This document shows, one piece after another, positions 18,877 through 49,654 of a stretch of 64,000 nucleotides of DNA (position 1 is the stretch's first letter; every line of letters starts with the position of its first letter). The stretch is taken from the NCBI RefSeq assembly GCF_011045215.1, contig NZ_CP049201.1. One strand, given 5' to 3'. This DNA comes from Escherichia coli (GTDB lineage: Bacteria; Pseudomonadota; Gammaproteobacteria; Enterobacterales; Enterobacteriaceae). The notes beneath the pieces are model-generated. The model had not been told where the DNA came from. It made no database searches and worked only from the letters and a program-made list of their open reading frames with translations. The position numbers and the translations under genes were made by a program.

Positions 18877-18877
18877 A

Positions 18878-20835: not shown

Positions 20836-21299
20836 CAGGACGCTCCTTGTTGAAACAGGGTGGTAAGTTCTTCCGCGGTCGGCTGGAAGGTGTTAATGCG
20901 GCCCGTCGCCTCGCCGTCGTTGATGCTGCACTCAAAACTGCCGAAGCGATCGTCCTGCATCAGCAGTTTGACGGTAATGGTCAGCGTCTGGCCTGCGGGC
21001 AGAATGCCAGTGGTGCAAAGCAATTCACGCGCGCCCAGTATCATCCCTAACTCAATACTGTTTTTGCCTTGCTGGTGGCGATGCCAGCCAGACCAGACGC
21101 CGACGGTTTGCGCCATCAGTTCAAGGGCAAACCAGCCAGGGAGATTGCCGTCCGGGTCGAGAAACGGTGCCAGTACGCCACTGGGCGAAACCGTCACGCG
21201 GCACACCGCGCTGTCATCGCTGACGCTCACCACGTCTTCCAGCAGTAACATGGGCGCGTCGTGGGGCAGATAAGCGCCGGGGGATAAATAGTGGCTCAC
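20835..21299 (-). CDS. Hot-dog fold 3-hydroxyacyl-ACP dehydratase (FabA/FabZ-like)
   Basis: 154 aa, hot-dog-fold size and composition; sits between KR and KS genes. Would be apeP by order (unverified). Confidence 0.7.
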   Translation of the reverse strand: MSHYLSPGAYLPHDAPMLLLEDVVSVSDDSAVCRVTVSPSGVLAPFLDPDGNLPGWFALELMAQTVGVWSGWHRHQQGKNSIELGMILGARELLCTTGILPAGQTLTITVKLLMQDDRFGSFECSINDGEATGRINTFQPTAEELTTLFQQGAS

Positions 21300-22474
21300 G
21301 AAACCCTCCCGAGCAGAATGCTGGCGTTATTGCCGCCAAAGGCGAAGGAATTGGACAGGATCACCGGACGTGCCAGCGGCTGTGGTTTTTCGATAATGCC
21401 GCACGGTGGCAGCGTGGGATCGCACGGCGACAGGCTGAAGTCCTGAGCGGGCAGCGGTAAATCACGCTGTAAAATCAACATGCTGATTGCCGCCTCGGTA
21501 ATGCCCGCCGCGCCCAGCGTGTGGCCGGTCAAATGTTTGGTGGAACTGCACGGTACGCGTTCGCCAAACAGGGCGTTAACCACCATTGATTCAATCTGAT
21601 CGTTGAGTTGTGTGGCGGTGCCGTGCAGGTTGATATAGCCGACGTCATCTGGCGTAAGCTGTGCATCGTTCAGCGCCTGATTAATAGCGCGGATCGCTCC
21701 TTCGCCCTGCGGATGCGGGGCTGAAATATGGTAAGCGTCGCTCGATTCACCAACGCCCAGCAACGCGATGGGCTGCGGTTCCCGGGTCAGCAGCATTAGC
21801 CCCGCCCCTTCACCAATGGTGATACCTGCGCGGTCACGACCAAACGGCTGACATAAGGTTGGCGACAGCGATTCGAGGCTGTGAAAACCGTTAATCGGCA
21901 TCCGGCTCAGGGTGTCTGCGCCACCCACAATGGCGGCATCGACCAGCCCCGCTTCGATAAGCCTGCGCCCGCTGATTATCGCTCTGGCGCTGGAAGAGCA
22001 GGCGGTTGAAAGGGTATAGGCCGGGCCGTCGAGCGCCAGCCAGTGGCTGAGAAAACGCGACGGATCGCCGAGTTCCTGTTGCGCGTAGTGCCATGTGGTG
22101 CTCGGCTGCCCGTGGGTGCGCAGGTTAACGTGCGTGTCGCCTTCATGCAGGCCGGAGGTGCTGGTGCCAAGTACAATCGCGATGCGCTCGCGACCATATT
22201 TCGCGATAGCGTCATCAACCTGCGGCTGGATCTGCGCCAGCGCCGCCAGCAGGATCTGATTGTTGCGCGAGCGGTGCGCAGCGAATTTTTCCGGGATAAG
22301 CGGAAGCTCGCCATCCACGCCAGCCAGGACCGCCTGCGGATGCCCCTGCAACCAGCCTGCGCGCGGGCGCATGCCGGGAGCAACACCGCGAGTCAGGTTG
22401 GTTGCGATTTCGTCAAGGTTATTTCCCAGGGCGTTGATCATGCCGACGGCGGAAATATAAATCATATCAGTCAC
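21296..22474 (-). CDS. Beta-ketoacyl synthase (elongating KS)
   Basis: 392 aa; active-site contexts STACSSS, HGTATQ, GHTLGA. Would be apeO by order (unverified). Confidence 0.85.
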   Translation of the reverse strand: MTDMIYISAVGMINALGNNLDEIATNLTRGVAPGMRPRAGWLQGHPQAVLAGVDGELPLIPEKFAAHRSRNNQILLAALAQIQPQVDDAIAKYGRERIAIVLGTSTSGLHEGDTHVNLRTHGQPSTTWHYAQQELGDPSRFLSHWLALDGPAYTLSTACSSSARAIISGRRLIEAGLVDAAIVGGADTLSRMPINGFHSLESLSPTLCQPFGRDRAGITIGEGAGLMLLTREPQPIALLGVGESSDAYHISAPHPQGEGAIRAINQALNDAQLTPDDVGYINLHGTATQLNDQIESMVVNALFGERVPCSSTKHLTGHTLGAAGITEAAISMLILQRDLPLPAQDFSLSPCDPTLPPCGIIEKPQPLARPVILSNSFAFGGNNASILLGRVS

Positions 22475-23051
22475 CTAAGTATTGAATGGTGATGTGGTAT
22501 TTAAAGACATGCTGCTCAATGCTGATTGGCACGCGTTTTCCCTGGCGATTCAGATAGGTGATTTCCGTGACCAGTTTGCCGCTGGCGTTACGCAGCTCGC
22601 GTTTGTCACCGTTGTCGCGAAGTGTCCATCCTGCGGGAAGTTGCGGTTGCCAGGCGCTAATCGGCCAGTGGCTGAGCATCACGTCAGCCAGTACCTGACT
22701 TGCGGGCGGTAACTGTGGGACGACGATGGATTGCTCGGCGCGTAGCCCTTGCGCATCGTAGGTCACCAGAAACAGGCGAATGCCGACCGACGACAGCCCG
22801 GCAAGGGTGATTTTCTGATCGTCGGCGTTAAGCATTACTAGCAGCGACTGGGTGTTGCCGTTGAAGCTGCCGGTTAACAGTTGCTGGGAATTGACGGCGG
22901 GTGAAATCCCCGGTGCCGGCAGCGTGATGCGCGTGCCAGGTTGCAGCCACGCCTGCGGGCGGCCTTCCTGTTCCGGTTGCGAGTGGCTACAGCCGGTGAG
23001 GATAAGCGTAGCGGTCAGGGCGAACGCTCGCCAGAAGGTAGGTTTGATCAT
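22467..23051 (-). CDS. Lipoprotein (DUF3261-like)
   Basis: 194 aa; signal peptide with lipobox (LTGC). Confidence 0.7.
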   Translation of the reverse strand: MIKPTFWRAFALTATLILTGCSHSQPEQEGRPQAWLQPGTRITLPAPGISPAVNSQQLLTGSFNGNTQSLLVMLNADDQKITLAGLSSVGIRLFLVTYDAQGLRAEQSIVVPQLPPASQVLADVMLSHWPISAWQPQLPAGWTLRDNGDKRELRNASGKLVTEITYLNRQGKRVPISIEQHVFKYHITIQYLGD

Positions 23052-25366
23052 TTTTTTGTTCTCTTTTTATCGGGCATAGCCAGCGGCGAAAGCAGGAAGG
23101 CGGTGAAAATACCGCTCACCAGCACAATGCCAAAACTGCTGATGGCCTGGGTGGCGCTGAATACCAGCATTCCCAGCGTCAGCAAGGTGGTGAGCATTGC
23201 CAGTGTGATCGCCAGTAGCGAAGTTAACGGCGTACCGCGCGGATTACTGAAAAACAACGTGTAGTTGATACCGATGCCAAGTACCAGCACCAGCGCCAGC
23301 AGCGAAAAGAGATTCACCGCCTGCCCGCTCATCGCCAGCACCGCCAGACCACAGCCCAGCGAAAGCACCGAAGGCACCAGGCTGATAAGCCCTTTGCGCC
23401 AGCCGAGACGGGCCACTGCGCCGCAGGCAATCACTGCCAGCGCCACCAGCAACAAGCCGGTTAAGACGTAGCGGTAAAGTGCGAACAATTCATCAAAGGT
23501 GCTTTTGCGATCAACCCAGGCAATGCCGCAAGGGTAATATGTGGCGATTTCCTGCATCAACGCGCTACTTTTAACCCCTTCAACCGGCACCAGTACGCCG
23601 CTTTCGCCATTTTCCAGCGTCAGCCACAGCAGACGCCAGCCTTCACTGGCGGGGCTTGCCAGCCATTCATCAACGTTCACTGGCATGGCGTTGAGATCTG
23701 GTTTCACCGCCGTCAGCCCGGCGTTTTGCAGTGCTTTTGTTACCGTCGGGGCCGCCGTTTTCAGCAGGTCTAAATCTTCCTCCTGTCGCGCCAGAGAGTT
23801 CAGCGGAATAGTGCGGTAATTGCTGATAAGACCGTCTTTTTTCGCCTTCTCCAGCGAGGAGGTAAATGTCTCCAGCCGTCCCAATGTTTGCTGTGGGGAG
23901 TCGCCGTAAACCACAAACCATTTTTGATCGACGCTTTGCCCGGTCAGGGCGGTAATGGCTTTCTCCTGGGTCAGAATATGCTGCGGTAGCGCCTGTAACT
24001 GCGAGATATCGTCATCGACGCGCAGCATTGACATCCCCGCCAGCGAAAACAGCGCCAGCGCGACGGGCAGACCCAGCGACAGTTTTTTATTACGCCGCCA
24101 CGCTGCCAGCCAGCGTAGCATCAGCGCCATCGCCGGAACCGGACGCACCGGCAGGCCACGGCACAGCCACGGATGCCAGAACAGGACGGTCAGACAAGAG
24201 GCGCTCAACCCGACGGCGGCAAAAATCGCCATCTGGCGAATGCCTGGGAAGGGGGCGAGCATCATAATCAGATACGCCGCCACGGTGGTGAGCAGCGCCA
24301 GTAGCAAGGCATTGCGTACTTTCGCCAGGCTTTGCCACGGCGAAACGTCGTTGCCGTGCACCATCCGCTCGGTGAGATAATAGAGCGTGTAGTCAGCGGA
24401 AATGCCGATAACGCTCATGCTCATTACCAGCGTCATCAGGTGTAATTCACCGAAAATCAATAAAGTGGCGACCGTTCCCGCCAGCGCGCCGATGCCGATG
24501 GAAATCACGCAAAGCAGCAACGGGCGCAAAGAGCGGAACACCGCCACAATCAGCAATATCACCCCCAGCAGCGTTGCCACGCCCAGGGTTGAGATATCCT
24601 GCTTCGCCTGTTGGCTGGCGTAATCGCTGTAAAACACCGTGCCGCGCGAAAGCAGCTGCGCCTGCGGGTAACGCGTTTTCAGATCCTTTTCCAGCGTATT
24701 CAGGGTCGTGATGAGCTGGTGGGTTTGCTGCATATCAAACGACGATCCCGCCAGTTCACCGTGCAGCAGATACCAGTAGTTGCCCTGGGGATCCTGCGTC
24801 ACCAGCCAGCCGTCCATCAGCCGCAAACGCTGGCCGTTTTTCGCCATCGCCAGCTGCGAGCCGCGCATTAACATCAGCGGATCGTTTTGCAGCTCCTTGC
24901 CGCTTACCCCGGAGAACGCAGAATAAAGCTGGGAGAGGATCCACTGCGCCTGCGCTTCGCCGCCGTTTTGCAGGCGCGCGCGGGTGTCGGGGTCAATCAG
25001 GCCGTTGCGGTGCTGCCAGAAAAACGCTCCCCACGCTTGCTGGCTGGCGGCATCCATTGGCCCTTTAACGTCGCCGAGCGCAGCGGATTTTTGCAGCAGC
25101 GTCAGCCACTCCTGAGCGACCAAAGGATTAGCCTCTTTACCGGGGCTGACCAGCCACACCAGTTGGCGGTCAAGACGCTGCATAAAGCCGTCATTCAGCG
25201 CCGGAGGAATATCGCCCATCGTCTGTTTGGGTAACATAGCCAGCACGCTACTGTTCAGCCGTGATTGCGGCAGCAGGATCAGCAACGCCGCCGCCATGAC
25301 CAGGCAGACTAGCCCCCATAACAGCGCGGGGCGTTTACTGGGCGGCAAAACGTTGGCGTTCGTCAT
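23048..25366 (-). CDS. MMPL/RND-superfamily membrane exporter
   Basis: 772 aa; two blocks of transmembrane helices each following an extracytoplasmic domain, typical of MMPL-type lipid exporters. Confidence 0.75.
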   Translation of the reverse strand: MTNANVLPPSKRPALLWGLVCLVMAAALLILLPQSRLNSSVLAMLPKQTMGDIPPALNDGFMQRLDRQLVWLVSPGKEANPLVAQEWLTLLQKSAALGDVKGPMDAASQQAWGAFFWQHRNGLIDPDTRARLQNGGEAQAQWILSQLYSAFSGVSGKELQNDPLMLMRGSQLAMAKNGQRLRLMDGWLVTQDPQGNYWYLLHGELAGSSFDMQQTHQLITTLNTLEKDLKTRYPQAQLLSRGTVFYSDYASQQAKQDISTLGVATLLGVILLIVAVFRSLRPLLLCVISIGIGALAGTVATLLIFGELHLMTLVMSMSVIGISADYTLYYLTERMVHGNDVSPWQSLAKVRNALLLALLTTVAAYLIMMLAPFPGIRQMAIFAAVGLSASCLTVLFWHPWLCRGLPVRPVPAMALMLRWLAAWRRNKKLSLGLPVALALFSLAGMSMLRVDDDISQLQALPQHILTQEKAITALTGQSVDQKWFVVYGDSPQQTLGRLETFTSSLEKAKKDGLISNYRTIPLNSLARQEEDLDLLKTAAPTVTKALQNAGLTAVKPDLNAMPVNVDEWLASPASEGWRLLWLTLENGESGVLVPVEGVKSSALMQEIATYYPCGIAWVDRKSTFDELFALYRYVLTGLLLVALAVIACGAVARLGWRKGLISLVPSVLSLGCGLAVLAMSGQAVNLFSLLALVLVLGIGINYTLFFSNPRGTPLTSLLAITLAMLTTLLTLGMLVFSATQAISSFGIVLVSGIFTAFLLSPLAMPDKKRTKK

Positions 25367-25940
25367 CGGTCAGTTGCGCTGGCGTCAGTTGATGTTGGGT
25401 AAGAGCAATATCGGTGCGATCGCCCTGTTTATCATTAAGTTGAATGCTCTCCAGATAGGTTTTCCCGGCGAGATCGATGGTGTTGAAAATTTTATCCAGC
25501 GGCGTGGTGGTCGGCGTCAGGCGCAGCGTCCAGCGGCCTTCGCCTTTGTCAGCAAATTCGACGCGGAAGTTTTGTTCCAGCACTTTGCGATCGGCCTGGA
25601 ACAGCGCGCGCAGCAGGTGGTTAAACTGGAACATCTGCGGGTTGTTTTCTGCCGTGATGATTTGCGGCGGCTGACCGTTGATCACCTGCACCATGCGTTT
25701 ATCGTCCAGTAATAGCTGCATGGGGAATGGTGAGGTTTGATCCCACAACAGCCCCTGGTCGCGGGCGATCAACATCTGGCCCTGAGATCGCAGCGGCTGC
25801 GGCAGATCTTTAATCGTCCGGGTTTGATCGAAATGGGCGCGGATCACCGGTTGTTCGGTAAAGCGTTGCTGAAGATCGTCCAGGGTCAGGGCGCTCACAA
25901 ACGGGCTAATCAGCAGCGCCAGCAGCGGTAAAAATTTCAT
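25335..25940 (-). CDS. LolA-like outer-membrane lipoprotein carrier
   Basis: 201 aa with signal peptide; LolA-family length and composition; 32-bp overlap with the MMPL gene. Confidence 0.65.
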   Translation of the reverse strand: MKFLPLLALLISPFVSALTLDDLQQRFTEQPVIRAHFDQTRTIKDLPQPLRSQGQMLIARDQGLLWDQTSPFPMQLLLDDKRMVQVINGQPPQIITAENNPQMFQFNHLLRALFQADRKVLEQNFRVEFADKGEGRWTLRLTPTTTPLDKIFNTIDLAGKTYLESIQLNDKQGDRTDIALTQHQLTPAQLTDDERQRFAAQ

Positions 25941-26359
25941 GGTTTGACTCCCATGCGTTCAAACAGAATATCGGGGCTGACAAAGCACAGTTCGCGACTT
26001 TGCTCGTCGACCGCGACCTGAATGGTGTATCCGGTGGTGGCGCGTTTGCCCGTTTCGGCATCGAAAATCTGATAGCCAATCCGCAGACGGTTTTCGAACT
26101 CTTCGATATGCGCACGCACGCGGATGCGTTGCTCAAAGGTGAGGGCGTGGCGATATTTCACCCGCGCATCGACCACTGGCCACAAATAACCGGACTCTTT
26201 CATCTGCCGATAGCCGTAATTGAACTGGTTGAGCAGCGCCTCGCGAGCCACTTCAAAGTAGCGAAAATAGTTACCGTGCCAGGCCACGCCCATCATATCG
26301 ACGTCGTGAAAGGGAATGGTCAGCTCGACTTCAGCGGTAAATCGGGGATCGTTAAGCAC
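25937..26359 (-). CDS. Acyl-CoA/acyl-ACP thioesterase (4HBT / YbgC-like hot-dog)
   Basis: 140 aa; 4HBT-type N-terminal motif (IPFHDVDMMGVAWHGNYFRYFE). Confidence 0.8.
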   Translation of the reverse strand: MLNDPRFTAEVELTIPFHDVDMMGVAWHGNYFRYFEVAREALLNQFNYGYRQMKESGYLWPVVDARVKYRHALTFEQRIRVRAHIEEFENRLRIGYQIFDAETGKRATTGYTIQVAVDEQSRELCFVSPDILFERMGVKP

Positions 26360-26362
26360 CCT

Positions 26363-28039
26363 TTACTCCTTGTCCTGAATTTCCGGCAGTTGCCAGAAAT
26401 CGAAAAAATTAAACCAGTCGAGGGGCGACTGGAGCGCGTAATGTTCCAGACGCGCGGCGTAGTGGTCGATAGCGTTTTGCAGCGCCTGCTGGCGTTCGCC
26501 ACGCGGCAGTTGCAGCGGGTCGGCAAAGCTTTCGCAGTGAATATGCAGCTTGCCGTGCTGGCGTAGGGCGAAAATCAGATTCACCGGGCAGCGCAAAATA
26601 GACGCGAGAATAAACGGTCCCTGTGGGAAAGGCGCAGGCTGGCCCATAAACGAACTCCAGCAGACGCGCCAGTCGCCGCCGCGTTGCGGGGTGACGGCGA
26701 TACGGTCACCGACAATCGCCACCCATTCCCCGTTATCCAGCTTCTCTTTCAGCAGGATGGCGGTTTCTGGGCCGATATCTGTTACCGGCATCAGGTTAAT
26801 GCCTGCCTGAGGAGCCATCTCCTGCATTATCTGTTTAAAGCGTTGGGCGTTTTCGCTAAACACCAGCGCGTTAATGGTTTTGTAGCCCTGAATTTTTGCC
26901 AGCGCCCGGCACACTTCCACATCGCCAAGATGCGAGGCCAGCAGCAATTTGCCGCGCGGATCGCGGACGTCAAGCGCCGCTTCTGCGCCTGGCGCAAACA
27001 GCACATCACGCCCCAGTTGTAGCTCGCCGCGCCAGCTGGCGATTTTGTCGAGCATGGCATTACCGAAACGTAGAAAGTGCTGATAGCTGTTGAGTTTTGC
27101 CGCCTGTGGTTGATGCTGTCGTACACGGGCGAGCCAGTCTTGCGACGCTTTGCGCGCACGAGAAGCAGTGAGCCAGTAGACGCCCACCACCGGGTAAAGC
27201 AGCGCGCTAAACGCCGTTCTTCCCAGCAGACGCCAGACCAGCAGCATCAGGCGCATTCCCCATAACCCTTTCACCTCACTCTGCCGCGCCCAGTGGCTGG
27301 AAGAACGGCGCATCAGCAGTGAAGGAATACGCGGCAACATGCCGAAAAATAGACGCGTGTGCATGAGCGAGATGCGGACGTTATCTTTCAGGGCATCAAA
27401 ATGCGAAAGCCCGTCCAGCGGATAGGTGACGCGGGTCGGCACGAAATAACTGGTGTTTCCCTGCCAGTAGAGGCGCACCATCACTTCGGTGTCGAAATCC
27501 ATCCGCTTGCCGATGGTGGCGTGTTTTGCCAGTTGCAGCGTTGGCGCAACCGGATAAACGCGAAAGCCGCACATGCTGTCTTTCAGTTGCAGGGAGAGCG
27601 TTTCGATCCATACCCAGACGTGAGTGACCCAGCGCCCATACAGCCGTGAGCGGGGGATGGAGTCATCGTAAATTGGCTGGCCGGAGATCAACGCCGCAGG
27701 GTGTTGTTCAGCGAGTGCCAGCAGTTTGGGGATATCTTCAATCGCATGTTGACCATCAGCATCTACCTGCACCGCATGGCTGAACCCCGCGTCTGCCGCT
27801 GCCTGTAAGCCGCGCATCACCGCCGCGCCTTTACCTGCGTTTTCTGCCAGGCGGATTAAGGTCACGCCAGGCTGTTCGCTAATCAGATTATCCAGTTGCT
27901 GTTGCGTGGCGGCATCGCTGCCGTCGTCCACCACAATACAAGGCAGATTAAATGGCTTAAGACGCGCCAGCACGCCCGGCATCATCGCGCCGTGGTTGTA
28001 GCAGGGGATCAACACGCAGGGAGAAAAGTTTACCGACAT
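26363..28039 (-). CDS. Two-domain protein: N-terminal family 2 glycosyltransferase fused to a C-terminal acyltransferase-like domain
   Basis: 558 aa; GT2 motifs (VVDDGSD, DxD-type VQVDADGQH) in the first ~230 aa, followed by membrane-associated and acyltransferase-like segments. Confidence 0.7.
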   Translation of the reverse strand: MSVNFSPCVLIPCYNHGAMMPGVLARLKPFNLPCIVVDDGSDAATQQQLDNLISEQPGVTLIRLAENAGKGAAVMRGLQAAADAGFSHAVQVDADGQHAIEDIPKLLALAEQHPAALISGQPIYDDSIPRSRLYGRWVTHVWVWIETLSLQLKDSMCGFRVYPVAPTLQLAKHATIGKRMDFDTEVMVRLYWQGNTSYFVPTRVTYPLDGLSHFDALKDNVRISLMHTRLFFGMLPRIPSLLMRRSSSHWARQSEVKGLWGMRLMLLVWRLLGRTAFSALLYPVVGVYWLTASRARKASQDWLARVRQHQPQAAKLNSYQHFLRFGNAMLDKIASWRGELQLGRDVLFAPGAEAALDVRDPRGKLLLASHLGDVEVCRALAKIQGYKTINALVFSENAQRFKQIMQEMAPQAGINLMPVTDIGPETAILLKEKLDNGEWVAIVGDRIAVTPQRGGDWRVCWSSFMGQPAPFPQGPFILASILRCPVNLIFALRQHGKLHIHCESFADPLQLPRGERQQALQNAIDHYAARLEHYALQSPLDWFNFFDFWQLPEIQDKE

Positions 28040-28413
28040 AGGCGGATCTTCCCGCTACTGGCGGTGTGGCGGGCGTCACCGTCGTGACGCTGATAGCTAA
28101 AGCTCAGAATCTGGCGATCTTCCTGCCAGTTAAGCGTGAGCGTGACGCGGTTTTCCGGCAGCAACGGAGACTGGAATTTTATGTTCTGAATGGAGTGAAA
28201 ACGCCAGCCAGGCGCGAGCAGGGCAAGCGCGTAACTCATGGCCCAGTCGATTTGCGCAACTCCTGGGAGTAATGGTTGCACGGCAAAATGGCCGCGAAAC
28301 CAGAACAGATCTGCCCTGAGATGCAAAACAATCTCAAGGTGATTCGCTTGTGCCTGATGGCGCTCGATTTCATGGGGCTTCATGAAATAACTCCTGTAAT
28401 TGCGCATAGACAC
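28030..28413 (-). CDS. FabZ/FabA-like hot-dog dehydratase
   Basis: 127 aa; FabZ-type motif (FRGHFAVQPLLPGV). The start may lie at an internal Met (MKPHE...). Confidence 0.75.
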   Translation of the reverse strand: MSMRNYRSYFMKPHEIERHQAQANHLEIVLHLRADLFWFRGHFAVQPLLPGVAQIDWAMSYALALLAPGWRFHSIQNIKFQSPLLPENRVTLTLNWQEDRQILSFSYQRHDGDARHTASSGKIRLCR

Positions 28414-29731
28414 GCTTGTTCATACTGTTTACTGGCATTTCATCAATAACGCGCCAGTAACGCGGAATGGCAACCGGCTCCAGCATCGGGCGCAGTAATC
28501 GCCGCCAGGCTATTTCCTGGCTATGCCCGCCGCCGTGCTGCCATTGCAGGCGAGCTTCGTCATCCAGCACCAGCAAAACGCCAATGCACTGACGCCCGCC
28601 GCGTGTAACAGGAACTGCCGCCGCCTCGCGAATACCGTCCAGTGCCAGCAGACGTTGTTCCACTTCCTGGAGTGAAATGCGTTTTTCTTCAATTTTAACG
28701 ATGCGTCCGCGACGCCCCATCAGATGGAACTGGCCGTCTTCGCTAAACTGTAAGATATCGTCGAGTAACAGGCCGTTATCTTCCGCCATCAGCGGTGAAA
28801 AGAGACGAAAAGAATCACCTTCGGCCTGGAACTGCATACCTGGGAGGGGTAGCCAGCGGCGTTGCTCTTGTTCGCGGTAGCGCCAGGCGATGACGCCGGT
28901 TTCCGTGCTGCCGTAGATTTCATCAGGCCAGACGCGCAGCCAGCTTGCGGTGTGTTGTACATCCTGCCACGGCAGCTCACCGCCAGCAGAGAGAAGCACC
29001 TGAACGGGTGGCGGAGAAAGCTGGGTATCCAGGCGCTTCAAAAATGCCGGGCTGCTGATGAAGATATAGCGATGCTGATGACTCAACGCGGCAAACTGTT
29101 CGACATACCAGAGCATGGCGGCGTGCAGCGGTAATCCCAACGCCATGGGCAGGAAAACGCGAAAAGTCAGGCCGTACAAATGCTGCGGCAATACGGAACC
29201 GACGACACGACAACCCGCCAGACGTGCGCCTAATCGTTCAGCCAGCAGTTCTGCTTCACGATCCAGCAAATGAACAGGTTTAATCACCCGTTTCGGCTGT
29301 CCCGTGGAACCGGAGGTAAACAGCTCGATAAAAGCCTCTGGCGCTATAGCGGAAAAGGTGAAGGATTGTGTCGCGATTTGTGGAGAACTTGCTACCAACA
29401 GCAATGAACCTTGCCAGTTAAGTTCGCTGTCGCTAAGCACACCATCAAAAAGTTCACGTTGCTCGTTAAGCTGGATAACACGGTTATGCCCCGGAAGCAC
29501 CGGCGTTTTTCCGGCGTGTAGCGTGGCGAGCAGGGCAACGATAAACAGATAGCTGTTCTCAAAGCACAGCGCCCAGCGTTCACCTGGCTGTTGCTGCAAG
29601 CGGCAGATAAGTTGCGCGACATCGTGACGCAAATCGCCCAGCGTCCAGGTGCTTTCGTCCAGCCACGCAATGGGCGTGTCATCAGGGCGTGGCGCAGTCA
29701 GCCAGCGTGCAAGCGGTAAGGTCTGCTTCAT
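28370..29731 (-). CDS. AMP-dependent synthetase/ligase (adenylating enzyme; candidate aryl starter-unit activator)
   Basis: AMP-binding motif TSGSTGQPK. Start placed at the Met that forms an ATGA overlap with the upstream gene's stop (plus strand 29728-29731 reads tcat); the ORF track extends to 29770. Confidence 0.8.
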   Translation of the reverse strand: MKQTLPLARWLTAPRPDDTPIAWLDESTWTLGDLRHDVAQLICRLQQQPGERWALCFENSYLFIVALLATLHAGKTPVLPGHNRVIQLNEQRELFDGVLSDSELNWQGSLLLVASSPQIATQSFTFSAIAPEAFIELFTSGSTGQPKRVIKPVHLLDREAELLAERLGARLAGCRVVGSVLPQHLYGLTFRVFLPMALGLPLHAAMLWYVEQFAALSHQHRYIFISSPAFLKRLDTQLSPPPVQVLLSAGGELPWQDVQHTASWLRVWPDEIYGSTETGVIAWRYREQEQRRWLPLPGMQFQAEGDSFRLFSPLMAEDNGLLLDDILQFSEDGQFHLMGRRGRIVKIEEKRISLQEVEQRLLALDGIREAAAVPVTRGGRQCIGVLLVLDDEARLQWQHGGGHSQEIAWRRLLRPMLEPVAIPRYWRVIDEMPVNSMNKRVYAQLQELFHEAP

Positions 29732-30309
29732 GCGCGATCTCTTTTCATCACCTGACGGCGCACCAGCCATTCACCAGCCATTAATGTTCCCATCAACAAA
29801 TAAGCAATCATGCCGTTCCAGGCGGTCCATAACGACATATCGGCATAAAGCGCGGTAAAGAGGGCAATTCCACCGTTGATGATGAAAAAGCCGCACCAGA
29901 TTTGCGTGACGCGGCGGGTATAGCGCATGCCCTTTTCCGGCAGATCTGGCTCCTGCAAACGCGCCAGCCGCTCAACTATCGGCATTGCCGACCACAGCGA
30001 ACCGCCAAAAACCGCCAGCATGACCGCGTTAACCACTACCGGGTAAAACAGCAGTAGCTGGTGTGTTTTCAACAGAACGCTGGCGACACATAATGCGATG
30101 CCCACGACAGCGACGATTTGTGTGACGACCTGGAGCGGCCCCGCCTGGCGACGGGTCTGGCGCAGGCGCAACAAAAGCAGCAACGCTATTAGCGGCAACA
30201 GCCAGTGCAGGCCGTTATGCGCTAAGCCAAACCAAATCACAAACGGCCAGGCGAGCAGCAATAATCCAGTCAGCAGCTTAATCATCGGTAGCGAGCGAAT
30301 GCCCGACAT
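29728..30309 (-). CDS. Small polytopic membrane protein of unknown function
   Basis: 193 aa, about 5 predicted hydrophobic helices; embedded in the operon with coupled stop/start. Confidence 0.6.
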   Translation of the reverse strand: MSGIRSLPMIKLLTGLLLLAWPFVIWFGLAHNGLHWLLPLIALLLLLRLRQTRRQAGPLQVVTQIVAVVGIALCVASVLLKTHQLLLFYPVVVNAVMLAVFGGSLWSAMPIVERLARLQEPDLPEKGMRYTRRVTQIWCGFFIINGGIALFTALYADMSLWTAWNGMIAYLLMGTLMAGEWLVRRQVMKRDRA

Positions 30310-30313
30310 CAGA

Positions 30314-30565
30314 TCAGGCTTCTTGTAGCAGGCGTTCTACAGCCTCGACGACATCCTGGACTGTACGCACTGCTTTAAACTCTTCCGGCTTGATTTTCTT
30401 ACCGGTTTTCTTTTGCAGGTGCACAATCATGTCAACGGCGTCGATGCTGTCCAGTTCCAGATCTTCGTACAGGCGCGCTTCAGGTTTGATGTCCTGCGGA
30501 TCGATTTCAAACAGCTTAACCAGCAGGGCTGAGACTTCCTGATAGACGGTTTGTTGTTCTGTCAT
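30314..30565 (-). CDS. Acyl carrier protein
   Basis: 83 aa; phosphopantetheine attachment motif (LELDSIDAVD). Confidence 0.85.
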   Translation of the reverse strand: MTEQQTVYQEVSALLVKLFEIDPQDIKPEARLYEDLELDSIDAVDMIVHLQKKTGKKIKPEEFKAVRTVQDVVEAVERLLQEA

Positions 30566-30576
30566 GATGGCTTTCC

Positions 30577-30834
30577 TCAGGCACGTTGCGCAGCAATGAA
30601 AGAGGCCAGAGTGGCGACGGAGAAAAAGTGCTGACGCATCTCTTCGCTTTCCGCAGAGAGCACGATGCCGTACTCATTTTTTACTGCCAGTCCCAGTTCC
30701 AGGGCATCGATAGAGTCCAGCCCTAAACCGTCGCCAAACAGCGGCGCGTCGGTATCGATATCATCAGGCGTCAACTCGTCCAGATTGAGGGTGCTGATGA
30801 TGAGGTTTTTAATTTCCAGATAAAGCGCTTGCAT
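30577..30834 (-). CDS. Acyl carrier protein (second, divergent copy)
   Basis: 85 aa; attachment motif (LGLDSIDALE). Confidence 0.85.
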   Translation of the reverse strand: MQALYLEIKNLIISTLNLDELTPDDIDTDAPLFGDGLGLDSIDALELGLAVKNEYGIVLSAESEEMRQHFFSVATLASFIAAQRA

Positions 30835-31630
30835 TATTTATTCCTGAGAGAGGTAAACAACCTTGTTGTAATTGAAGCAAAAGATGCCGGTTTAACTGCC
30901 TTGCTGCCAGCGCCGGTTCTTGTGAAGTTGCATCGTAAAATTTATTGATTTCAACCCGACCATGGACTGCAACCGTAAAAAACGGCCGGTCAGGTGGAAC
31001 GTCATACCATTTACTTTGTTTATCCAGCAGATGCTCGCTACAGCCGATCGTCACGATGCGTAAATCGCTGGCACAGCGCACGGCAATATTCGCCGCCCCG
31101 CGCTGCAGCGTCATTTTTTCACCGGGCTTCGTTCGCGTGCCTTCGGGGAAAATCAGGATAGTGTCACCCTGTGCCAGTCGCTGTTGGCAGCGGGGTAACA
31201 GGGTTTCAGCTTCGCTGTTGATTAAATAATCTGCCGCCCGCACGACGCCGCCAAGAAAAGGATTTTTTAACAGCGCGCTTTTCACCAGGCAGTCAGTTTC
31301 TGGCATGACTGACGCCAGCAGCACGTAATCGATCAGCGTGGGATGATTGGCTACGACGAGGCAACCGCGTTCCTGACGTAAAATTTCAGCGCCATCAATA
31401 CGATAATCCAGCACGCCAAGCCCTTTCGCGACAGTTAAAAACAGGCGAAAACTGGCGGCAATGCTGCGACGCGCCAAACGACGGCGGCGGGAAGTATCCC
31501 ACACCAAAACTAACAATATGTTAAACCACACGACAGAAAGCAGCAGGCCGCCGAGACCAAACAGGGCAAAACATAACCCGGTCATGACCAGTCGCCAGGT
31601 CCACTCCAGACGTGACATCAGCTTACTCAT
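30809..31630 (-). CDS. Lysophospholipid acyltransferase (PlsC-like)
   Basis: HX4D acyltransferase motif (NHPTLID). Start placed at the Met giving an ATGA overlap with the upstream gene (plus strand 31627-31630 reads tcat); the ORF track extends to 31648. Confidence 0.8.
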   Translation of the reverse strand: MSKLMSRLEWTWRLVMTGLCFALFGLGGLLLSVVWFNILLVLVWDTSRRRRLARRSIAASFRLFLTVAKGLGVLDYRIDGAEILRQERGCLVVANHPTLIDYVLLASVMPETDCLVKSALLKNPFLGGVVRAADYLINSEAETLLPRCQQRLAQGDTILIFPEGTRTKPGEKMTLQRGAANIAVRCASDLRIVTIGCSEHLLDKQSKWYDVPPDRPFFTVAVHGRVEINKFYDATSQEPALAARQLNRHLLLQLQQGCLPLSGINNASALSGN

Positions 31631-32352
31631 CTGTGGCTCCAGCGCCATTGCACGCGCTCGCCAGGCAGTGAAAATGTGTCTACATTTTGTAAATAGTGCT
31701 GTAAAAACAACATGCTTTGCGGCAGTGTTGTTTCATTGCCCGCAATGGCTGACTGCGTTTCACATTGCCAGTCATCGCCAGCTTCAATCACCAGCGCGAC
31801 GGCGTACGGCCAGGTCGGCATTTCTGCAGGCAGTTGTGGGTGATAAAACTCGGGCAGAAAACCGTCAAAATCGACCATCAGCACGCGCTGGTATCCCGCT
31901 TGTAACAGGCTAAGCACTTCACACAAACCTTGCTGGAAAGTGTCGCGACCAGCAGAAAGCGATGACGAAACGATCGGCTGTTTGGCCGCAATGGTCAGGT
32001 TACCCACGGAAGAGTTGTGTACTGAAAGTGCAAAGTCGGTCGGAGAAAGCGCCTGTTCGGTTGCCAGTGCATGAACAATGCGGTAATTGCGCTCCAGTTC
32101 GCCATGACGACTGGTATACAAAACGGCGTCTGGCTGATGGCGGCGTAGCATTGCCAGACCGCATTCAACAGCCAGTTTGCTGCCTGAACTGAGGCGGCGG
32201 GCGGTCATCATTGGCAGTTCACTTAATTTTGCCAACGGCGCGGCAGGGTCAATCGCCCACGGCTGGCGCGACCATGCTTGCCATTGCTGCGCTTCGCTAA
32301 GTCCAGGCGCCAGTGCCTGCCAGTCGGTAATATTTAATGTAAATTTCATCAA
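31627..32352 (-). CDS. Short ketosynthase-like protein (chain-length-factor-like KS partner)
   Basis: 241 aa with KS-like sequence but much shorter than a full KS and no clear Cys-His-His triad (SVHNSSVG where the active-site Cys block would be). Confidence 0.65.
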   Translation of the reverse strand: MMKFTLNITDWQALAPGLSEAQQWQAWSRQPWAIDPAAPLAKLSELPMMTARRLSSGSKLAVECGLAMLRRHQPDAVLYTSRHGELERNYRIVHALATEQALSPTDFALSVHNSSVGNLTIAAKQPIVSSSLSAGRDTFQQGLCEVLSLLQAGYQRVLMVDFDGFLPEFYHPQLPAEMPTWPYAVALVIEAGDDWQCETQSAIAGNETTLPQSMLFLQHYLQNVDTFSLPGERVQWRWSHR

Positions 32353-32389
32353 CGCGCGCCCGCGGTAAACCCAAATTATTAAGTGACGA

Positions 32390-33457
32390 TTATTTCTTTT
32401 GGCATATCAAAAGTGTATGCCCAACGCCTAAATTATCGTGGCGCTCTGCTACCTGGAATCCTGCTTTATTCAGATAGTCGTAAAATTTCTCTGCACTATA
32501 GAAACGGCTGTTACCGTTTGCCATGCAGGTAAAATAAAGTGAGGACGCGTTCAGGCTAAACGATGCTGCTTCAAACCGCTGCGCATCCCAGAACAACTCC
32601 ATGATGCAAACTTTTGCGCCAGGCTTCATTACGCTGGCAATTTTGCTGAGTATGCTAATTATTTGTTCGGGTGAAAAACAGTCTAAAAATTGGCTCATCC
32701 ACCAGATATCAGCCTCGCCCGGTAATGGGGCATCGCTTAGCATATCCACCGCATGGAAATCTATGCGATCAGAAAAACCTGCATTCGCGATATTTTCTTT
32801 CGCTAGTACGATTTGTTGTGGCAGATCTAATAACGTCACGGCGATGTTTTCATTGTATTTGCAGCAACGCAAAGCCCACTTACCCGTATTGCCGCCTACA
32901 TCGTACAATGTTGTGGGGTTGTTGGCGAATACATAAGGCAGTGCGGCGTTAAATGCGCCATCTGAATAGTAATGATCAAACGCAAACCAGCTTTCACGAG
33001 CGGCGTCTGGTAATTGCGAAAGTGCCGGATATATCGTCGACCAGTCGCCAAATACTTTTAACCCGGAAGGTTTTCCTTCATTGAGTGAATCGGCGAGGAA
33101 GAAGAGCCCCTGGTAACAGACATCCTGGGTGAAATCCATATTCACGCGAGTCATAGTGTCATGCAGGAGGTAATGACCGATTTTCGCCAGGTAATAAATT
33201 CCCTCTTTACAGGTAATAATTCGCCCGCTTAAGCCCATATCTAACAGAACGCTGGCAGCATATTCGTTGATATGGCTATGTTCGGTGATATCAGCCAGCG
33301 TTGCGCCATGTTTGCCTTGCCGATCCAGATATGAAAGTACACCCGCATTACGTAGGCAGAGTGCTGTTTGAAAAAGCATAGGGGCAAAGGCAATGCGTTG
33401 AGCTTCGGTAATCGCATCCAGTGCGCTAAGAGAATCCTGTTCGTACATGTTGGGCAC
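32390..33457 (-). CDS. SAM-dependent O-methyltransferase (class I)
   Basis: 355 aa; SAM-binding motif (LYDVGGNTGKWA) within a C-terminal Rossmann-like domain. Would be apeB by order (unverified). Confidence 0.8.
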   Translation of the reverse strand: MPNMYEQDSLSALDAITEAQRIAFAPMLFQTALCLRNAGVLSYLDRQGKHGATLADITEHSHINEYAASVLLDMGLSGRIITCKEGIYYLAKIGHYLLHDTMTRVNMDFTQDVCYQGLFFLADSLNEGKPSGLKVFGDWSTIYPALSQLPDAARESWFAFDHYYSDGAFNAALPYVFANNPTTLYDVGGNTGKWALRCCKYNENIAVTLLDLPQQIVLAKENIANAGFSDRIDFHAVDMLSDAPLPGEADIWWMSQFLDCFSPEQIISILSKIASVMKPGAKVCIMELFWDAQRFEAASFSLNASSLYFTCMANGNSRFYSAEKFYDYLNKAGFQVAERHDNLGVGHTLLICQKK

Positions 33458-33516
33458 AACCTGTTAAGAGGGAATTAAATTATTATCGGACCGCAACGGC
33501 CCGACTTTAGGAAGAA

Positions 33517-33906
33517 TTATAAATCTGCGCCCGCTGACAAATTCAGTTGAATATCTTTGTCGAGATTGCGGACCCAGCGATTGTAGTTTTTATGAATTTG
33601 TCCGCCTGACGCTTGTAGGTTCTGGCTATTTTCATAATTGATATCGTAGCTGGATGCCGTGTAGTTAATGCGTATTTCCGCTGAATGATCGCGTGACTGT
33701 TGACGTGCTTTAATTATGCCTTGTCCGGCTTCGGACATAATCCATTTGCGTTCAACGCCAGCTTTCAGAATCGCTTTTTTCACTTGTTCCTGGGTATGAC
33801 CAGCGCTGACGGTTGAGTGAACCTGATCAATTGGCGCAGTACGCGCGCAACCTGCTAAAGCACCCACAACAGCAATAGCCGCAAACCATTTCATGTAATG
33901 TCTCAT
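33517..33906 (-). CDS. Small lipoprotein of unknown function leading the cluster
   Basis: 129 aa; signal peptide plus lipobox (LAGC); the real start may be the internal Met at MKWFAAI. Confidence 0.6.
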   Translation of the reverse strand: MRHYMKWFAAIAVVGALAGCARTAPIDQVHSTVSAGHTQEQVKKAILKAGVERKWIMSEAGQGIIKARQQSRDHSAEIRINYTASSYDINYENSQNLQASGGQIHKNYNRWVRNLDKDIQLNLSAGADL

Positions 33907-34236
33907 TAGAACCCCATTAAAGTATTGTTTTTACGAGTAAAGCAAGATTTAACTGTAATTGCTGGCATCACTATTCTTTATTTAGAGAAAAAATTACTTG
34001 TGAGATAAGTCAGTAAGTGCACATCAGAGTAAAAATCTCTGAAATGACTAAATTACTGCCAGCAGGGACCAACTATAAGTGAGTGAGAAAAATGAGGCAA
34101 TAAAAATAACACAATGTTATCAGTGCATTCTTTGAGAAGGATTTAATCGCTATTCGGCGTTTATATATATTTGACTTAAGGAATGGTTTTTTTAAATTAA
34201 TTTTCTGAATAATGTTTCATCATTTCCTCAAATCAA

Positions 34237-34265
34237 ATGGCCACTGTTAGATAAACGGTGGCCAT
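34237..34265 (-). terminator. Hairpin downstream of yhhT (candidate terminator)
   Basis: 8-bp inverted repeat ATGGCCAC / GTGGCCAT with 13-nt loop, 20 bp after the yhhT stop. Confidence 0.4.
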
Positions 34266-34285
34266 TGCCTGCTCAGGAGGTGCTA

Positions 34286-35335
34286 TTAACCCGGTAACCG
34301 ACTTTTCGGTCTGCCCGGCCCCAGTAAAATCGCCAGTTTGCTACCGCCTTTGGTGGTTTCCATCCAGATTTTACACACGCTGGTTAATGGCACCGAAAGT
34401 AGCATCCCTACCGGGCCGAGCAGCCATCCCCAAATTAACAATGAAAGAAATACCACCATGGTGGACATCCCCAGGCGATGGCCCATCATCCGTGGTTCTA
34501 AAATATTGCCGATAACCATATGGACAACTAAAAACAATGCGCCGACCAGAATACATTCGTAAACACCATTAAACAGCAGCACCTGAATCATTGGCGGTAC
34601 GGCGGAAATTACCGCGCCGATATTGGGCACGTAGTTGAGCAAAAACGCCAGTACTGCCCACATCAGCGCAAACTGCACCCCCATCAGCTCCAGCCCCAGC
34701 CAGACGATGACACCTGTCCATAAACTGAGTAGCGTCTTCAATGCAAGATAGTGCGAAACACCTTTTAAGGCGCGGTGTAGTCCGGCGATATGAATCTGTG
34801 GATTATTCAATGCAAAACGCATTTTGTAAGGGACGTGGCGCACTTCAAACAGCATAAAAACTACGGTCATCACCAGCAAAAGCACGCTCGCCATTGCCCC
34901 GGAAAGCCCGGTCATTAGCGCTGTGGTGAAGGTAACCACTTTTTCCGAGTCCATCCGCTGCAGCATTCGCTCCGGCGACATATGCAAATTAAGAAAAGGC
35001 AACATCTCCTGCAATTTAAAAAGTTTGCGCGTCAGCTCCTTATTAAACTTCGGCAGCATAGAGATAAATTCGTTAAACGATGCCGCCAGTACGCCGACCA
35101 GCGCGGTTAGTGTGATCAGCATCACCACCACCACAATCGTAATGGCAACGGGGCGTTTTACTCCCCGTCGAATAAACCAGGTAACGAGCGGGTTGAGGAC
35201 GATGGCAAAAAACAGCGCCAGTAACAGCTGCACAATGATATCTGCCGCTGCGTGAATGCCCGCGAGGATCACTACCAGCGAGGCCAGCTTGAGCAGAATG
35301 TGCATGCCCGTTTTATCGGGTTGAGGGGTTTCCAT
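34286..35335 (-). CDS. yhhT: AI-2E/PerM-family membrane transporter
   Basis: 349-aa product starting METPQPDKTG; the ORF track adds a 27-codon upstream extension. Confidence 0.88.
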   Translation of the reverse strand: METPQPDKTGMHILLKLASLVVILAGIHAAADIIVQLLLALFFAIVLNPLVTWFIRRGVKRPVAITIVVVVMLITLTALVGVLAASFNEFISMLPKFNKELTRKLFKLQEMLPFLNLHMSPERMLQRMDSEKVVTFTTALMTGLSGAMASVLLLVMTVVFMLFEVRHVPYKMRFALNNPQIHIAGLHRALKGVSHYLALKTLLSLWTGVIVWLGLELMGVQFALMWAVLAFLLNYVPNIGAVISAVPPMIQVLLFNGVYECILVGALFLVVHMVIGNILEPRMMGHRLGMSTMVVFLSLLIWGWLLGPVGMLLSVPLTSVCKIWMETTKGGSKLAILLGPGRPKSRLPG

Positions 35336-49231: not shown

Positions 49232-49654
49232 GGGTAACCCGTGTAAATCACAAAAGTGGAACCAGTGTAGCGAAATAATTTAATCGGAGGCTTTCTCTTT
49301 TTTATTTCTTTTGGCAGGTGATTAATTTTTTAACAGCAATAATTGCAAAGTTAAAACATTAGAGAATGAAAAATACCCAGCATAATCCCCTGAATGGTAG
49401 TGAATTATTCCGCCCTTTGTGCCGTTATTTTATGCTGACAAAGGCACTTTTTTCTGTTTATCTATCAATAAATTCAGAATATTATCTGTTCTTAATCGAC
49501 TGAAAAATAGGGACTTTAATCGCTATTATCACAAAATACTGCGCTAAACCCTTAATCAGACAGGCAAAAACAGTGCAGTATAAAAAAAGAACAGTCTGAT
49601 TTGTTAACACATAAAAACAAAGCAACACAACATCACGAATGGGGATTTTTGACT

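What the first reader, a model, noticed from the sequence alone, without database searches (positions are those of the whole stretch)
33517..34285. Leading lipoprotein gene and AT-rich 380-bp upstream region as the likely regulatory entry point of the cluster
The cluster begins with a small lipobox protein (LAGC), preceded by a conspicuously AT-rich intergenic region (33907-34285) containing A/T tracts. No regulator gene is encoded inside the cluster, so control probably comes from global regulators acting here; AT-rich horizontally acquired promoters are often H-NS silenced.
Basis: inference. Interest (0 to 1): 0.35.

Follow-up and report, generated by a model that had tools for sequence, protein, structure and literature searches.

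The report
apeA and aryl-polyene cluster promoter region
This is the already described first gene (apeA, a small outer-membrane lipoprotein) of the E. coli aryl-polyene pigment gene cluster plus its unmapped, AT-rich promoter region, an ordinary feature with a few new details.

Summary
ORF 33517-33906 (minus strand) encodes a 129-aa lipoprotein with lipobox LAGC. The 379-bp spacer 33907-34285 has 33% GC, against 55% for the cluster. No regulator gene lies in the cluster.

The cluster is the aryl-polyene (APE) cluster, O-island 138 of O157:H7, and the ORF is apeA. About 10% of complete E. coli genomes carry it between yhhT and acpT.

The spacer holds a terminator-like hairpin downstream of yhhT (34266-34236) and one sigma-70-type promoter candidate: -35 TTGCCT at 34100-34095 and -10 TATAGT at 34077-34072. 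That candidate is conserved as TTGATA-17-TATACT in Citrobacter and Klebsiella. It also sits in the longest invariant block within Escherichia. It predicts a leader of about 160 nt.

The long AT-rich spacer upstream of apeA recurs in about 80 Enterobacterales loci.

The locus is syntenic (yhhS-yhhT-apeA-apeB) across many genera and was deleted in K-12-type strains, so it is not a recent foreign acquisition. A conserved hairpin directly after apeA (33505-33485) partly insulates apeA from apeB-apeR.

H-NS silencing is plausible but untested. Published data show temperature, TosR and RpoS effects.

The result is ordinary and of low to moderate interest.

The parts
33517..33906 (-). apeA: a 129-aa lipoprotein and first gene of the aryl-polyene (APE) cluster, O-island 138. 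It is 65% identical to the apeA of the CFT073/NC101-type cluster.
   Evidence: PMC8253772 Table 1.
33847..33858 (-). Lipobox codons L17-A18-G19-C20. The +2 residue is Ala, which predicts sorting to the outer membrane by the Lol pathway.
   Evidence: translation. One search shows L17 and C20 invariant and A18 and G19 at least 90% conserved. The sorting rule is established knowledge.
33912..33915 (-). Shine-Dalgarno-like GGGG, 5 nt upstream of the ATG at 33906. It lies in a conserved block that reads TTGATAGGGAGTTTTAATG in other genera.
34065..34111 (-). Core promoter candidate P(apeA). It comprises the AT-rich TTATTTTTA, a -35 TTGCCT (34100-34095), a 17-nt spacer and a -10 TATAGT (34077-34072). 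The predicted start of transcription is near 34065, giving a leader of about 160 nt.
   Evidence: One search found the site. Searches show the homologous TTGATA-17-TATACT in 8 Citrobacter and Klebsiella loci. Searches show it is the longest invariant run (47 nt) among 6 divergent Escherichia. No experimental transcription start data were available.
34236..34266 (-). Terminator-like hairpin downstream of yhhT: AAUGGCCACCG-loop-CAGUGGCCAUU followed by UGAUUUG. Other genera have an analogous hairpin of different sequence at the same place.
34160..34215 (.). The most AT-rich core of the spacer, with an A7 run and (AT)4. The 100-bp window 34160-34259 is 25% GC.
33999..34014 (.). CRP-like site TGTGAgataagTCAgt, matching 8 of 10 consensus positions, inside the predicted leader and about 100 nt upstream of the ATG. 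The homologous position in Citrobacter sp. MGH106 is a perfect TGTGAAATAGATCACA. It may mark a second, proximal promoter or it may be chance.
   Evidence: This is a weak lead, not a finding.
33485..33505 (-). Conserved hairpin 12 nt after the apeA stop codon: GUCGGGCCG-UUG-CGGUCCGAU, then AAUAAUUUAAUU. It is read here as a leaky terminator or attenuator between apeA and apeB.
33449..33516 (-). The apeA-apeB spacer, 68 nt measured to the conserved apeB ATG at 33448. In 74 of the 80 loci surveyed the two genes are more than 30 nt apart, unlike most later gene junctions in the cluster, which overlap or abut.
34286..34290 (.). Right-hand junction of the indel. K-12-type genomes align only from 34290 onward, at the yhhT stop codon.
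18289..33448 (-). The rest of the unit, apeB to apeR, then acpT starting 1 nt after the apeR stop. All genes are co-directional.

Best explanation
ORF 33517-33906 is apeA, the first gene of the aryl-polyene (APE) pigment-lipid cluster, known as O-island 138. It encodes a small lipoprotein predicted to be sorted to the outer membrane.

The 379-bp AT-rich spacer upstream is the 5' control region of the cluster. A terminator-like hairpin at 34266-34236 follows yhhT. A sigma-70-type promoter then follows, with -35 at 34100-34095 and -10 at 34077-34072. It is predicted to start transcription near 34065 and to give a leader of about 160 nt.

RNA polymerase reads through apeA. It then meets a conserved, U-poor hairpin at 33505-33485 that lets only part of the transcripts continue into apeB-apeR-acpT. 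ApeA would therefore be made in excess over the enzymes.

The cluster has no regulator of its own, so promoter output would be set by global factors that act on AT-rich DNA (H-NS, IHF or PapB-type proteins) and by sigma-factor competition.

Shown here: gene identity, lipobox, AT-richness, conservation of the spacer, promoter motif and hairpin, and synteny. Inferred: the start site, promoter activity, read-through, and which factors bind.
For: Identity: homologues and cluster annotation and the published ape nomenclature.

A long AT-rich spacer upstream of apeA recurs across 80 loci, typically 260-500 bp at 30-40% GC against 50-58% GC downstream.

The promoter site was found by the scan. It aligns with TTGATA-17-TATACT in Citrobacter and Klebsiella. 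It lies in the longest invariant run within Escherichia, 34111-34065.

The scan found no other minus-strand promoter-like site between 34100 and the apeB start.

A terminator-like hairpin lies downstream of yhhT.

The hairpin after apeA has a free energy of -10 kcal/mol or better in 69 of 80 loci, against 24 of 80 shuffled controls. Dickeya, Brenneria, Xenorhabdus and others have U-tracts after it, making canonical terminators there.

In CFT073, the 37 C versus 23 C log2 fold change falls from 1.5-2.1 for apeA-apeE to 0.3 for apeQ and apeR, and ApeA protein was detected.

Seven O-island 138 genes rise 2- to 6-fold in an EDL933 rpoS mutant.

An arabinose-inducible promoter placed in front of apeB activates the otherwise silent Xenorhabdus cluster.
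Against: No experimental transcription start or reporter data exist for this sequence.

The promoter-like site scores only 9 of 12 against the consensus, and the number of such sites in the region equals chance (3 found, 2.5 expected).

The motif is conserved only in a sub-clade. C. sedlakii, C. amalonaticus, Lelliottia, Enterobacter, Serratia and Xenorhabdus show no alignable equivalent.

A 47-nt invariant run has roughly a 10% chance of occurring somewhere in the spacer at the observed divergence (my estimate).

In CFT073, apeB did not respond to H2O2 while apeD and apeO did. The authors speak of 'native promoter(s)', which suggests additional internal promoters.

The CFT073 expression data come from a paralogous cluster whose upstream DNA is not alignable with this one.
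Confidence: 0.6

Rival explanations
1. apeA is a self-contained, monocistronic gene with its own promoter and terminator. The biosynthetic genes apeB-apeR are driven by separate promoters, so the 380-bp spacer controls only the lipoprotein.
For: A hairpin directly after apeA is conserved in 69 of 80 loci, and several genera have full terminators with U-tracts there. In 74 of the 80 loci apeA and the next gene are more than 30 nt apart. [quoted passage not shown] Deleting apeA leaves pigmentation intact.
Against: Only about 36 nt lie between the hairpin and the apeB ATG, which is too little for a promoter. The scan found no promoter-like site inside apeA. In E. coli the hairpin is followed by AAUAAUUUAAUU, a poor U-tract. 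In CFT073, apeA, apeB and apeC are induced together, and the effect decays smoothly along the cluster.
Confidence: 0.25
2. One reading: the spacer is the promoter of a horizontally acquired island that H-NS silences. Expression would require an anti-silencing signal.
For: The spacer is 379 bp at 33% GC, among the 3-4 most AT-rich stretches of the window. The related CFT073 cluster is induced at 37 C relative to 23 C. It is also induced by TosR, a PapB-family protein thought to counteract H-NS and Lrp. The Xenorhabdus cluster is silent in the laboratory. Frischella needs IHF for APE production.
Against: Synteny across many genera, together with the apeR remnant in K-12, indicates an ancestral locus that was later lost rather than a recent acquisition. 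The cluster body is 55% GC. No H-NS high-affinity motif is present within 2 mismatches. EDL933 arrays show moderate signals (log2 7-10) for proximal genes in LB, so silencing is not complete. No H-NS data for the locus were found.
Confidence: 0.15
3. The active promoter is a proximal, CRP-dependent one. The CRP-like site at 33999-34014 would drive a start near 33965. The distal motif would be a relic or a secondary promoter.
For: The site matches 8 of 10 positions against 0.29 expected by chance. The homologous position in Citrobacter sp. MGH106 is a perfect CRP consensus, and in Citrobacter sp. Cu233 it matches 8 of 10. A conserved block CT(T)AAATAAA lies just downstream.
Against: The -10 candidates at the right distance are poor (AAGAAT, AATAGT; read). 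Most related loci have 3 or more mismatches in the site. Total CRP-like hits across the 81 upstream regions are below the shuffle expectation (5 against 12).
Confidence: 0.12
4. The spacer is functionless filler at an indel junction, and the cluster is transcribed by read-through from yhhT.
For: yhhT is co-directional and lies immediately upstream.
Against: A stable hairpin followed by UGAUUUG lies after yhhT, with analogues in other genera. The long AT-rich spacer and the promoter block are conserved.
Confidence: 0.04

Closest known systems
ApeA (c1204) of the E. coli CFT073 aryl-polyene cluster (Cimermancic 2014; Johnston et al. 2021, PMC8253772)
   Same: Both are 129-aa lipoproteins that form the first gene of the cluster, followed by the methyltransferase apeB and the chain-length factor apeC. 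Both clusters have 18 co-directional genes and no regulator gene.
   Different: The protein is only 65% identical, and the coding DNA about 69% identical, to the CFT073/NC101-type gene. The chromosomal site differs: yhhT-acpT here, next to cdiBA there. The upstream DNA is not alignable. The NC101-type spacer carries a much stronger consensus promoter, TTGACA-18-TATATT, about 118 nt upstream of the ATG.
[not shown]
   Same: It is the same locus. The apeA-plus-spacer DNA is 99.9% identical in O157:H7 strains. In EDL933 the gene order is the same and acpT follows apeR by 1 nt.
   Different: Nothing material differs. The window comes from a non-O157:H7 strain that is 100% identical to XH990 and Santai over 33400-34400.
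Promoters regulated by nucleoid-associated proteins through AT-rich upstream DNA (for example pap, tos, proU, LEE1; from general knowledge and PMC5956150)
   Same: The long AT-rich control region, the lack of a dedicated regulator, and the temperature and PapB-family (TosR) responsiveness reported for the sister cluster.
   Different: No binding or mutant data exist for this locus. The DNA is not recently acquired, and only the spacer is AT-rich, not the operon.
Intercistronic hairpins that set differential expression within operons (for example papBA, malEFG; from my own knowledge)
   Same: A stable GC-rich hairpin right after an abundant structural gene, followed by enzyme genes needed in smaller amounts.
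   Different: The function is untested here. In several genera the element looks like a full terminator.

Membership tests
ApeA lipoprotein of APE clusters | N-terminal signal peptide with a lipobox ending in Cys | tested here: met
   The sequence reads MRHYMKWFAAIAVVGALAG-C20. L17 and C20 are invariant in 24 homologues.
ApeA lipoprotein of APE clusters | Sequence homology to the apeA of the characterised CFT073-type cluster | tested here: met
   It is 65% identical over the full length to the NC101 copy of that cluster type, which also sits next to a cdiA (hemagglutinin-repeat) gene, as c1204-c1205 do.
ApeA lipoprotein of APE clusters | Position as the first gene, co-directional with and directly upstream of apeB or apeC | tested here: met
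   This holds in the window and in 79 of the 80 related loci, where apeB or apeC was found downstream.
Aryl-polyene biosynthetic gene cluster | Core gene set: ketosynthases apeO and apeR, chain-length factor apeC, two acyl carrier proteins, dehydratases, ketoreductase, adenylating enzyme, and the LolA-like, MMPL and DUF3261 export genes | tested here: met
   Pfam hits and RefSeq annotation cover the set. The gene order is identical to Table 1 of PMC8253772.
Sigma-70 promoter | -35 and -10 hexamers with 16-18 nt spacing | tested here: met
   TTGCCT-17-TATAGT matches 9 of 12 positions. Homologues read TTGATA-17-TATACT.
Sigma-70 promoter | A mapped transcription start or reporter activity | not testable with these tools
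   The EDL933 Cappable-seq tables (PMC10469882) are held only in truncated form and do not reach 4.42 Mb.
H-NS-silenced xenogeneic promoter | AT content well above the genome average | tested here: met
   The spacer is 33% GC against 53% for the window. Only 0.2% of 300-bp windows are as AT-rich.
H-NS-silenced xenogeneic promoter | Recent horizontal acquisition | tested here: not met
   The yhhS-yhhT-apeA synteny holds in many genera. The cluster is 55% GC. K-12 retains an apeR remnant.
H-NS-silenced xenogeneic promoter | H-NS occupancy and derepression in hns mutants | not testable with these tools
   No data were found. No TCGATAAATT-like motif is present within 2 mismatches.
Intrinsic terminator (element after apeA) | GC-rich stem-loop | tested here: met
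   A 9-bp stem forms here, and the 78-nt junction fold has a free energy of -18.5 kcal/mol. A hairpin is conserved in 69 of 80 loci.
Intrinsic terminator (element after apeA) | A U-tract immediately 3' of the stem | tested here: not met
   The E. coli tail is AAUAAUUUA. Among the 69 loci with a strong hairpin, 22 have at least 5 U in the next 9 nt. In E. coli the element is at best leaky.
Intrinsic terminator (element after yhhT) | Stem-loop plus U-rich tail | tested here: inconclusive
   The stem is stable and the tail is UGAUUUG. It did not pass the strict scan.

The most novel reading that the evidence does not exclude
The apeA control region would be an ancient, vertically inherited switch. 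It would integrate nucleoid-associated proteins (H-NS, IHF or PapB-type) and possibly CRP. The conserved hairpin after apeA would act as an attenuator that fixes a high ratio of ApeA to biosynthetic enzymes. ApeA would be a lipid-binding outer-membrane lipoprotein with a KA1/BamC-like fold that receives or anchors the aryl-polyene lipid.
Probability: 0.2. Interest if true: 0.4.

Novelty: already known. Interest (0 to 1): 0.22.

Why it matters
Aryl-polyene clusters are among the most widespread bacterial biosynthetic gene clusters. They have been linked to oxidative-stress protection and biofilm formation in pathogens. How they are regulated is an acknowledged gap, because the cluster has no regulator gene of its own.

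This work gives a concrete promoter candidate and a conserved element after apeA. It also predicts a start site for each of the two candidate promoters. Together these give experimenters precise targets for reporter fusions and for H-NS, IHF or CRP binding tests.

The analysis also corrects the common 'O-island means foreign DNA' assumption for this locus. None of this is surprising to a specialist.

Tried and rejected
- Rfam scan of 33300-34500 at the permissive threshold found only a chance snoRNA hit, so no known RNA family is present.
- Small ORFs in the spacer: only 20-27-aa chance ORFs were found.
- Folding of the predicted 182-nt leader gave z = 0.06, so there is no evidence of a structured leader.
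- Consensus scans for IHF, FNR, Fur, OxyR, ArcA, marbox, Lrp and H-NS motifs gave nothing above chance, apart from a weak CRP-like site and a weak Lrp-like site.
- Promoter-like and terminator-like site counts in the spacer and across the whole cluster equal the shuffle expectation. The promoter call therefore rests on conservation, not on the scan.
- Literature searches for O-island 138 with H-NS, and the Ler regulon paper, contain nothing on this locus.
- The EDL933 genome-wide start-site tables (PMC10469882) are stored in truncated form and cover only the first ~0.6 Mb.
- The 35-nt K-12 junction sequence has no match in the window.
- Pfam found no family for ApeA, and NCBIfam gave only sub-threshold hits to lipoprotein signal peptides.
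- One AcpT literature search returned irrelevant hits.

Full report
**What is there.** The window is E. coli chromosome. Megablast of 33400-34400 hits every complete E. coli genome through the yhhT part. Only 569 of 5,426 genomes cover the whole query. RefSeq annotation of an identical strain gives this order on the minus strand of the window: yhhT, a lipoprotein, a methyltransferase, a ketosynthase chain-length factor, an acyltransferase, two carrier proteins, a membrane protein, an AMP-binding enzyme, a dehydratase, a glycosyltransferase, a thioesterase, a LolA-like protein, an MMPL transporter, DUF3261, a ketosynthase, a dehydratase, a ketoreductase, a ketosynthase, and then acpT and nikA-E. 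Pfam hits agree. This matches, gene for gene, the aryl-polyene (APE) cluster apeA-apeR described for E. coli CFT073 (PMC8253772 Table 1). By position it is O-island 138 of O157:H7, whose carrier proteins are the substrates of AcpT. The flagged ORF is therefore apeA.

**Check of the observation.** The ORF, the LAGC lipobox and the AT-rich spacer are all real.
- The spacer is 33.2% GC, against 55.4% for the cluster and 53.3% for the window.
- It is the lowest-GC intergenic region in the window, tied with the livK upstream region. Only 0.2% of 300-bp windows are as AT-rich.
- The A/T tracts are no more frequent than composition predicts: 7 observed against 6.1 expected.
Homologues in more than 20 genera are 129 aa, begin MK-x-x-x-K, and have no Met at position 5.
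- No regulator gene is present, as the field also states.

**Origin of the locus.** Cluster-less genomes align only from 34290, the yhhT stop codon. On the other side, K-12 keeps the last 19 nt of apeR directly upstream of acpT. That indicates a deletion in K-12-type strains.

I fetched 80 related loci with the ApeA alignment. The order yhhS-yhhT-apeA-apeB-apeC recurs in Citrobacter (many species), Klebsiella indica and K. michiganensis, Superficieibacter, Lelliottia, Leclercia, Huaxiibacter, Enterobacter, Kosakonia and Pluralibacter. Protein identities of YhhT and ApeB/ApeC decline roughly in parallel across these genera. The locus is therefore ancestral to Enterobacteriaceae and has been lost from most E. 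coli. 'Horizontally acquired' is not supported.

A second, divergent version of the cluster is present in 256 genomes, including NC101. Its apeA coding DNA is about 69% identical to this one, and CFT073's reported c1204-c1205 arrangement matches it. It sits next to cdiBA and has unrelated upstream DNA.

**Anatomy of the spacer, read 5' to 3' on the minus strand.**
- The yhhT stop codon is followed by a stable hairpin at 34266-34236 and then UGAUUUG. Other genera have a hairpin of different sequence at the same place.
- A very AT-rich tract lies at 34215-34160.
- Next comes the only minus-strand promoter-like site in the region, TTGCCT-17-TATAGT at 34100-34072.
- A stretch of about 160 nt follows, with no significant predicted fold, no Rfam match and no credible small ORF.
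- A conserved block containing the ribosome-binding site ends at the ATG.

**Is the promoter real?** The scan alone means nothing, because it found 3 sites against 2.5 expected. Conservation is the evidence.
- In alignments anchored on apeA, the site corresponds to a block TTATTT(t/c)(c/t)ATTGATA-N17-TATACTT.
- Five Citrobacter loci, K. indica and K. michiganensis carry TTGATA-17-TATACT, or TTGATG in C. gillenii, about 230 nt upstream of the ATG. A C. amalonaticus locus carries TTGATA-17-TATAGT further upstream, at about 330 nt.
- Among six divergent Escherichia, including cryptic-clade E1V33 (90.5% identical to the window over the spacer), the longest invariant run of the spacer is 47 nt. It covers exactly 34111-34065, from the AT-rich stretch through the -35 and -10 to the predicted start.
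- More distant genera show no alignable equivalent, so the promoter position is not universal.
- What is universal is a long, AT-rich spacer upstream of apeA, typically 260-500 bp at 30-40% GC.

I rate the distal promoter as likely (about 0.55-0.6) but unproven. A CRP-like site at 33999-34014 matches 8 of 10 positions and is perfect at the homologous position in Citrobacter sp. MGH106. It leaves room for a second, proximal promoter.

Twelve nucleotides after the apeA stop codon lies a 9-bp GC-rich hairpin at 33505-33485.
- A hairpin of -10 kcal/mol or better occurs within 70 nt of the apeA stop in 69 of 80 loci, against 24 of 80 shuffled controls.
- In Enterobacteriaceae the stem sequence GTCGGGCC...GGCCCGAT is itself conserved, with variable loops and a few compensatory changes.
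- In Dickeya, Brenneria, Xenorhabdus, a C. freundii locus (L053) and others the sequence differs and is followed by U-tracts, making canonical terminators.
- In 74 of the 80 loci apeA and the next gene are more than 30 nt apart, whereas most later genes of the cluster overlap or abut.
- In E. coli the tail is U-poor. Only about 36 nt remain before the apeB ATG, and no promoter-like site lies within apeA.

I therefore read the hairpin as a leaky terminator or attenuator, or a 3' stabiliser of an apeA transcript, rather than a full stop.

**Published expression data.**
- In CFT073, which carries the sister cluster, a shift from 23 C to 37 C induces apeA-apeI by log2 1.15-2.1. The effect decays to 0.3 at apeQ and apeR. 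ApeA protein was detected. A regulated promoter at the head of the cluster, with polarity or constitutive internal promoters downstream, would give this gradient.
- TosR, a PapB-family protein thought to antagonise H-NS and Lrp, induces that cluster.
- Chronic H2O2 raises apeD and apeO but not apeB.
- In EDL933, which carries this same locus, seven O-island 138 genes are 2- to 6-fold higher in an rpoS mutant in stationary phase. Their signals in LB are moderate. apeB is 2-fold RpoS-dependent in exponential phase.
- The Xenorhabdus cluster is silent until an inducible promoter is placed in front of apeB.
- Frischella needs IHF for APE production.

Together these data fit control by global, DNA-architecture-type factors and sigma-factor competition. 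None of them demonstrates H-NS binding here.

**What ApeA may be.** An AlphaFold model has mean pLDDT 81. The signal peptide is low-confidence and the mature domain scores mostly 75-97. It gives a beta-alpha-beta4-alpha fold.
- Foldseek hits are weak and include the Francisella lipoprotein Flpp3.
- KA1 domains bind acidic phospholipids and helix-grip proteins bind lipids (general knowledge).
- The published apeA deletion phenotype is normal pigmentation with loss of the mature APE lipid.

A lipid-handling role at the outer membrane is plausible, but it is an inference.

**Verdict.** The finding is a correct description of a known gene and of the unmapped promoter region of a known cluster. The 'regulatory entry point' idea is reasonable and now has a specific candidate promoter. 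The 'foreign, H-NS-silenced' framing is half wrong on origin and half untested on H-NS. The conserved hairpin after apeA qualifies the claim that this is the single control point. The novelty is low, because the gene, the cluster and the absence of a regulator are all published. The conserved promoter block, the conserved attenuator-like hairpin and the cross-genus synteny are small additions.

Noticed in passing
window 18870-18900; L003 1440-1500: K-12-type genomes keep the last 19 nt of apeR (tcagggccaacgtttaatg) next to acpT, followed by 35 nt of unmatched sequence before the yhhT stop codon. Every cluster-less genome sampled shares the same junction at window 34290. That fits a single deletion event.
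   Followed up: partly
window 18289-18880: acpT starts 1 nt after the apeR stop codon, so the phosphopantetheinyl transferase looks like the nineteenth gene of the ape transcription unit. The published CFT073 cluster description counts 18 genes and no dedicated transferase.
   Followed up: partly
window 33894-33906: RefSeq (PGAP) calls apeA 4 codons short (125 aa) in many E. coli genomes, and some label it 'hypothetical protein'. Cross-genus conservation supports the 129-aa start.
   Followed up: yes
[not shown]
   Followed up: partly
L002 4360-4874 (E. coli NC101): The second, CFT073/NC101-type APE cluster has a 515-bp spacer between apeA and the divergently oriented cdiB. It carries a near-consensus promoter, TTGACA-18-TATATT, about 118 nt upstream of apeA. 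That is far stronger than the TTGCCT/TATAGT of the yhhT-linked cluster.
   Followed up: partly
window 34106-34120: The palindrome ATAACAttgtGTTAT lies immediately upstream of the -35. It is present in Escherichia but not conserved in Citrobacter. It could be a binding site for an unknown factor.
   Followed up: no
window 33960-33967 and 34059-34066: An 8-bp inverted repeat (TGCTGGCA / TGCCAGCA) brackets most of the predicted leader and could pair in the RNA. The overall fold is not better than shuffled sequence.
   Followed up: partly
window 34171-34198 (+ strand): A promoter-like site, TTGACT-16-TAAATT, points towards yhhT in antisense. It is probably a chance match in AT-rich DNA.
   Followed up: no
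window 63280-63960, 49240-49620 and 90-780: Three other stretches are as AT-rich as the flagged spacer, or more so, at 27-34% GC. The one at 49.2-49.6 kb is the panM-livK intergenic region. The other two were not identified.
   Followed up: no
L026, L029, L033, L043, L046, L047, L050-L052, L054-L056, L069, L072, L079, L081-L083: In a subset of genera, including Raoultella, some Enterobacter, Pluralibacter, Cedecea, Erwinia, Mixta and Pantoea, apeB is missing. There apeA is followed, after a longer gap of roughly 130-500 nt, by apeC.
   Followed up: no
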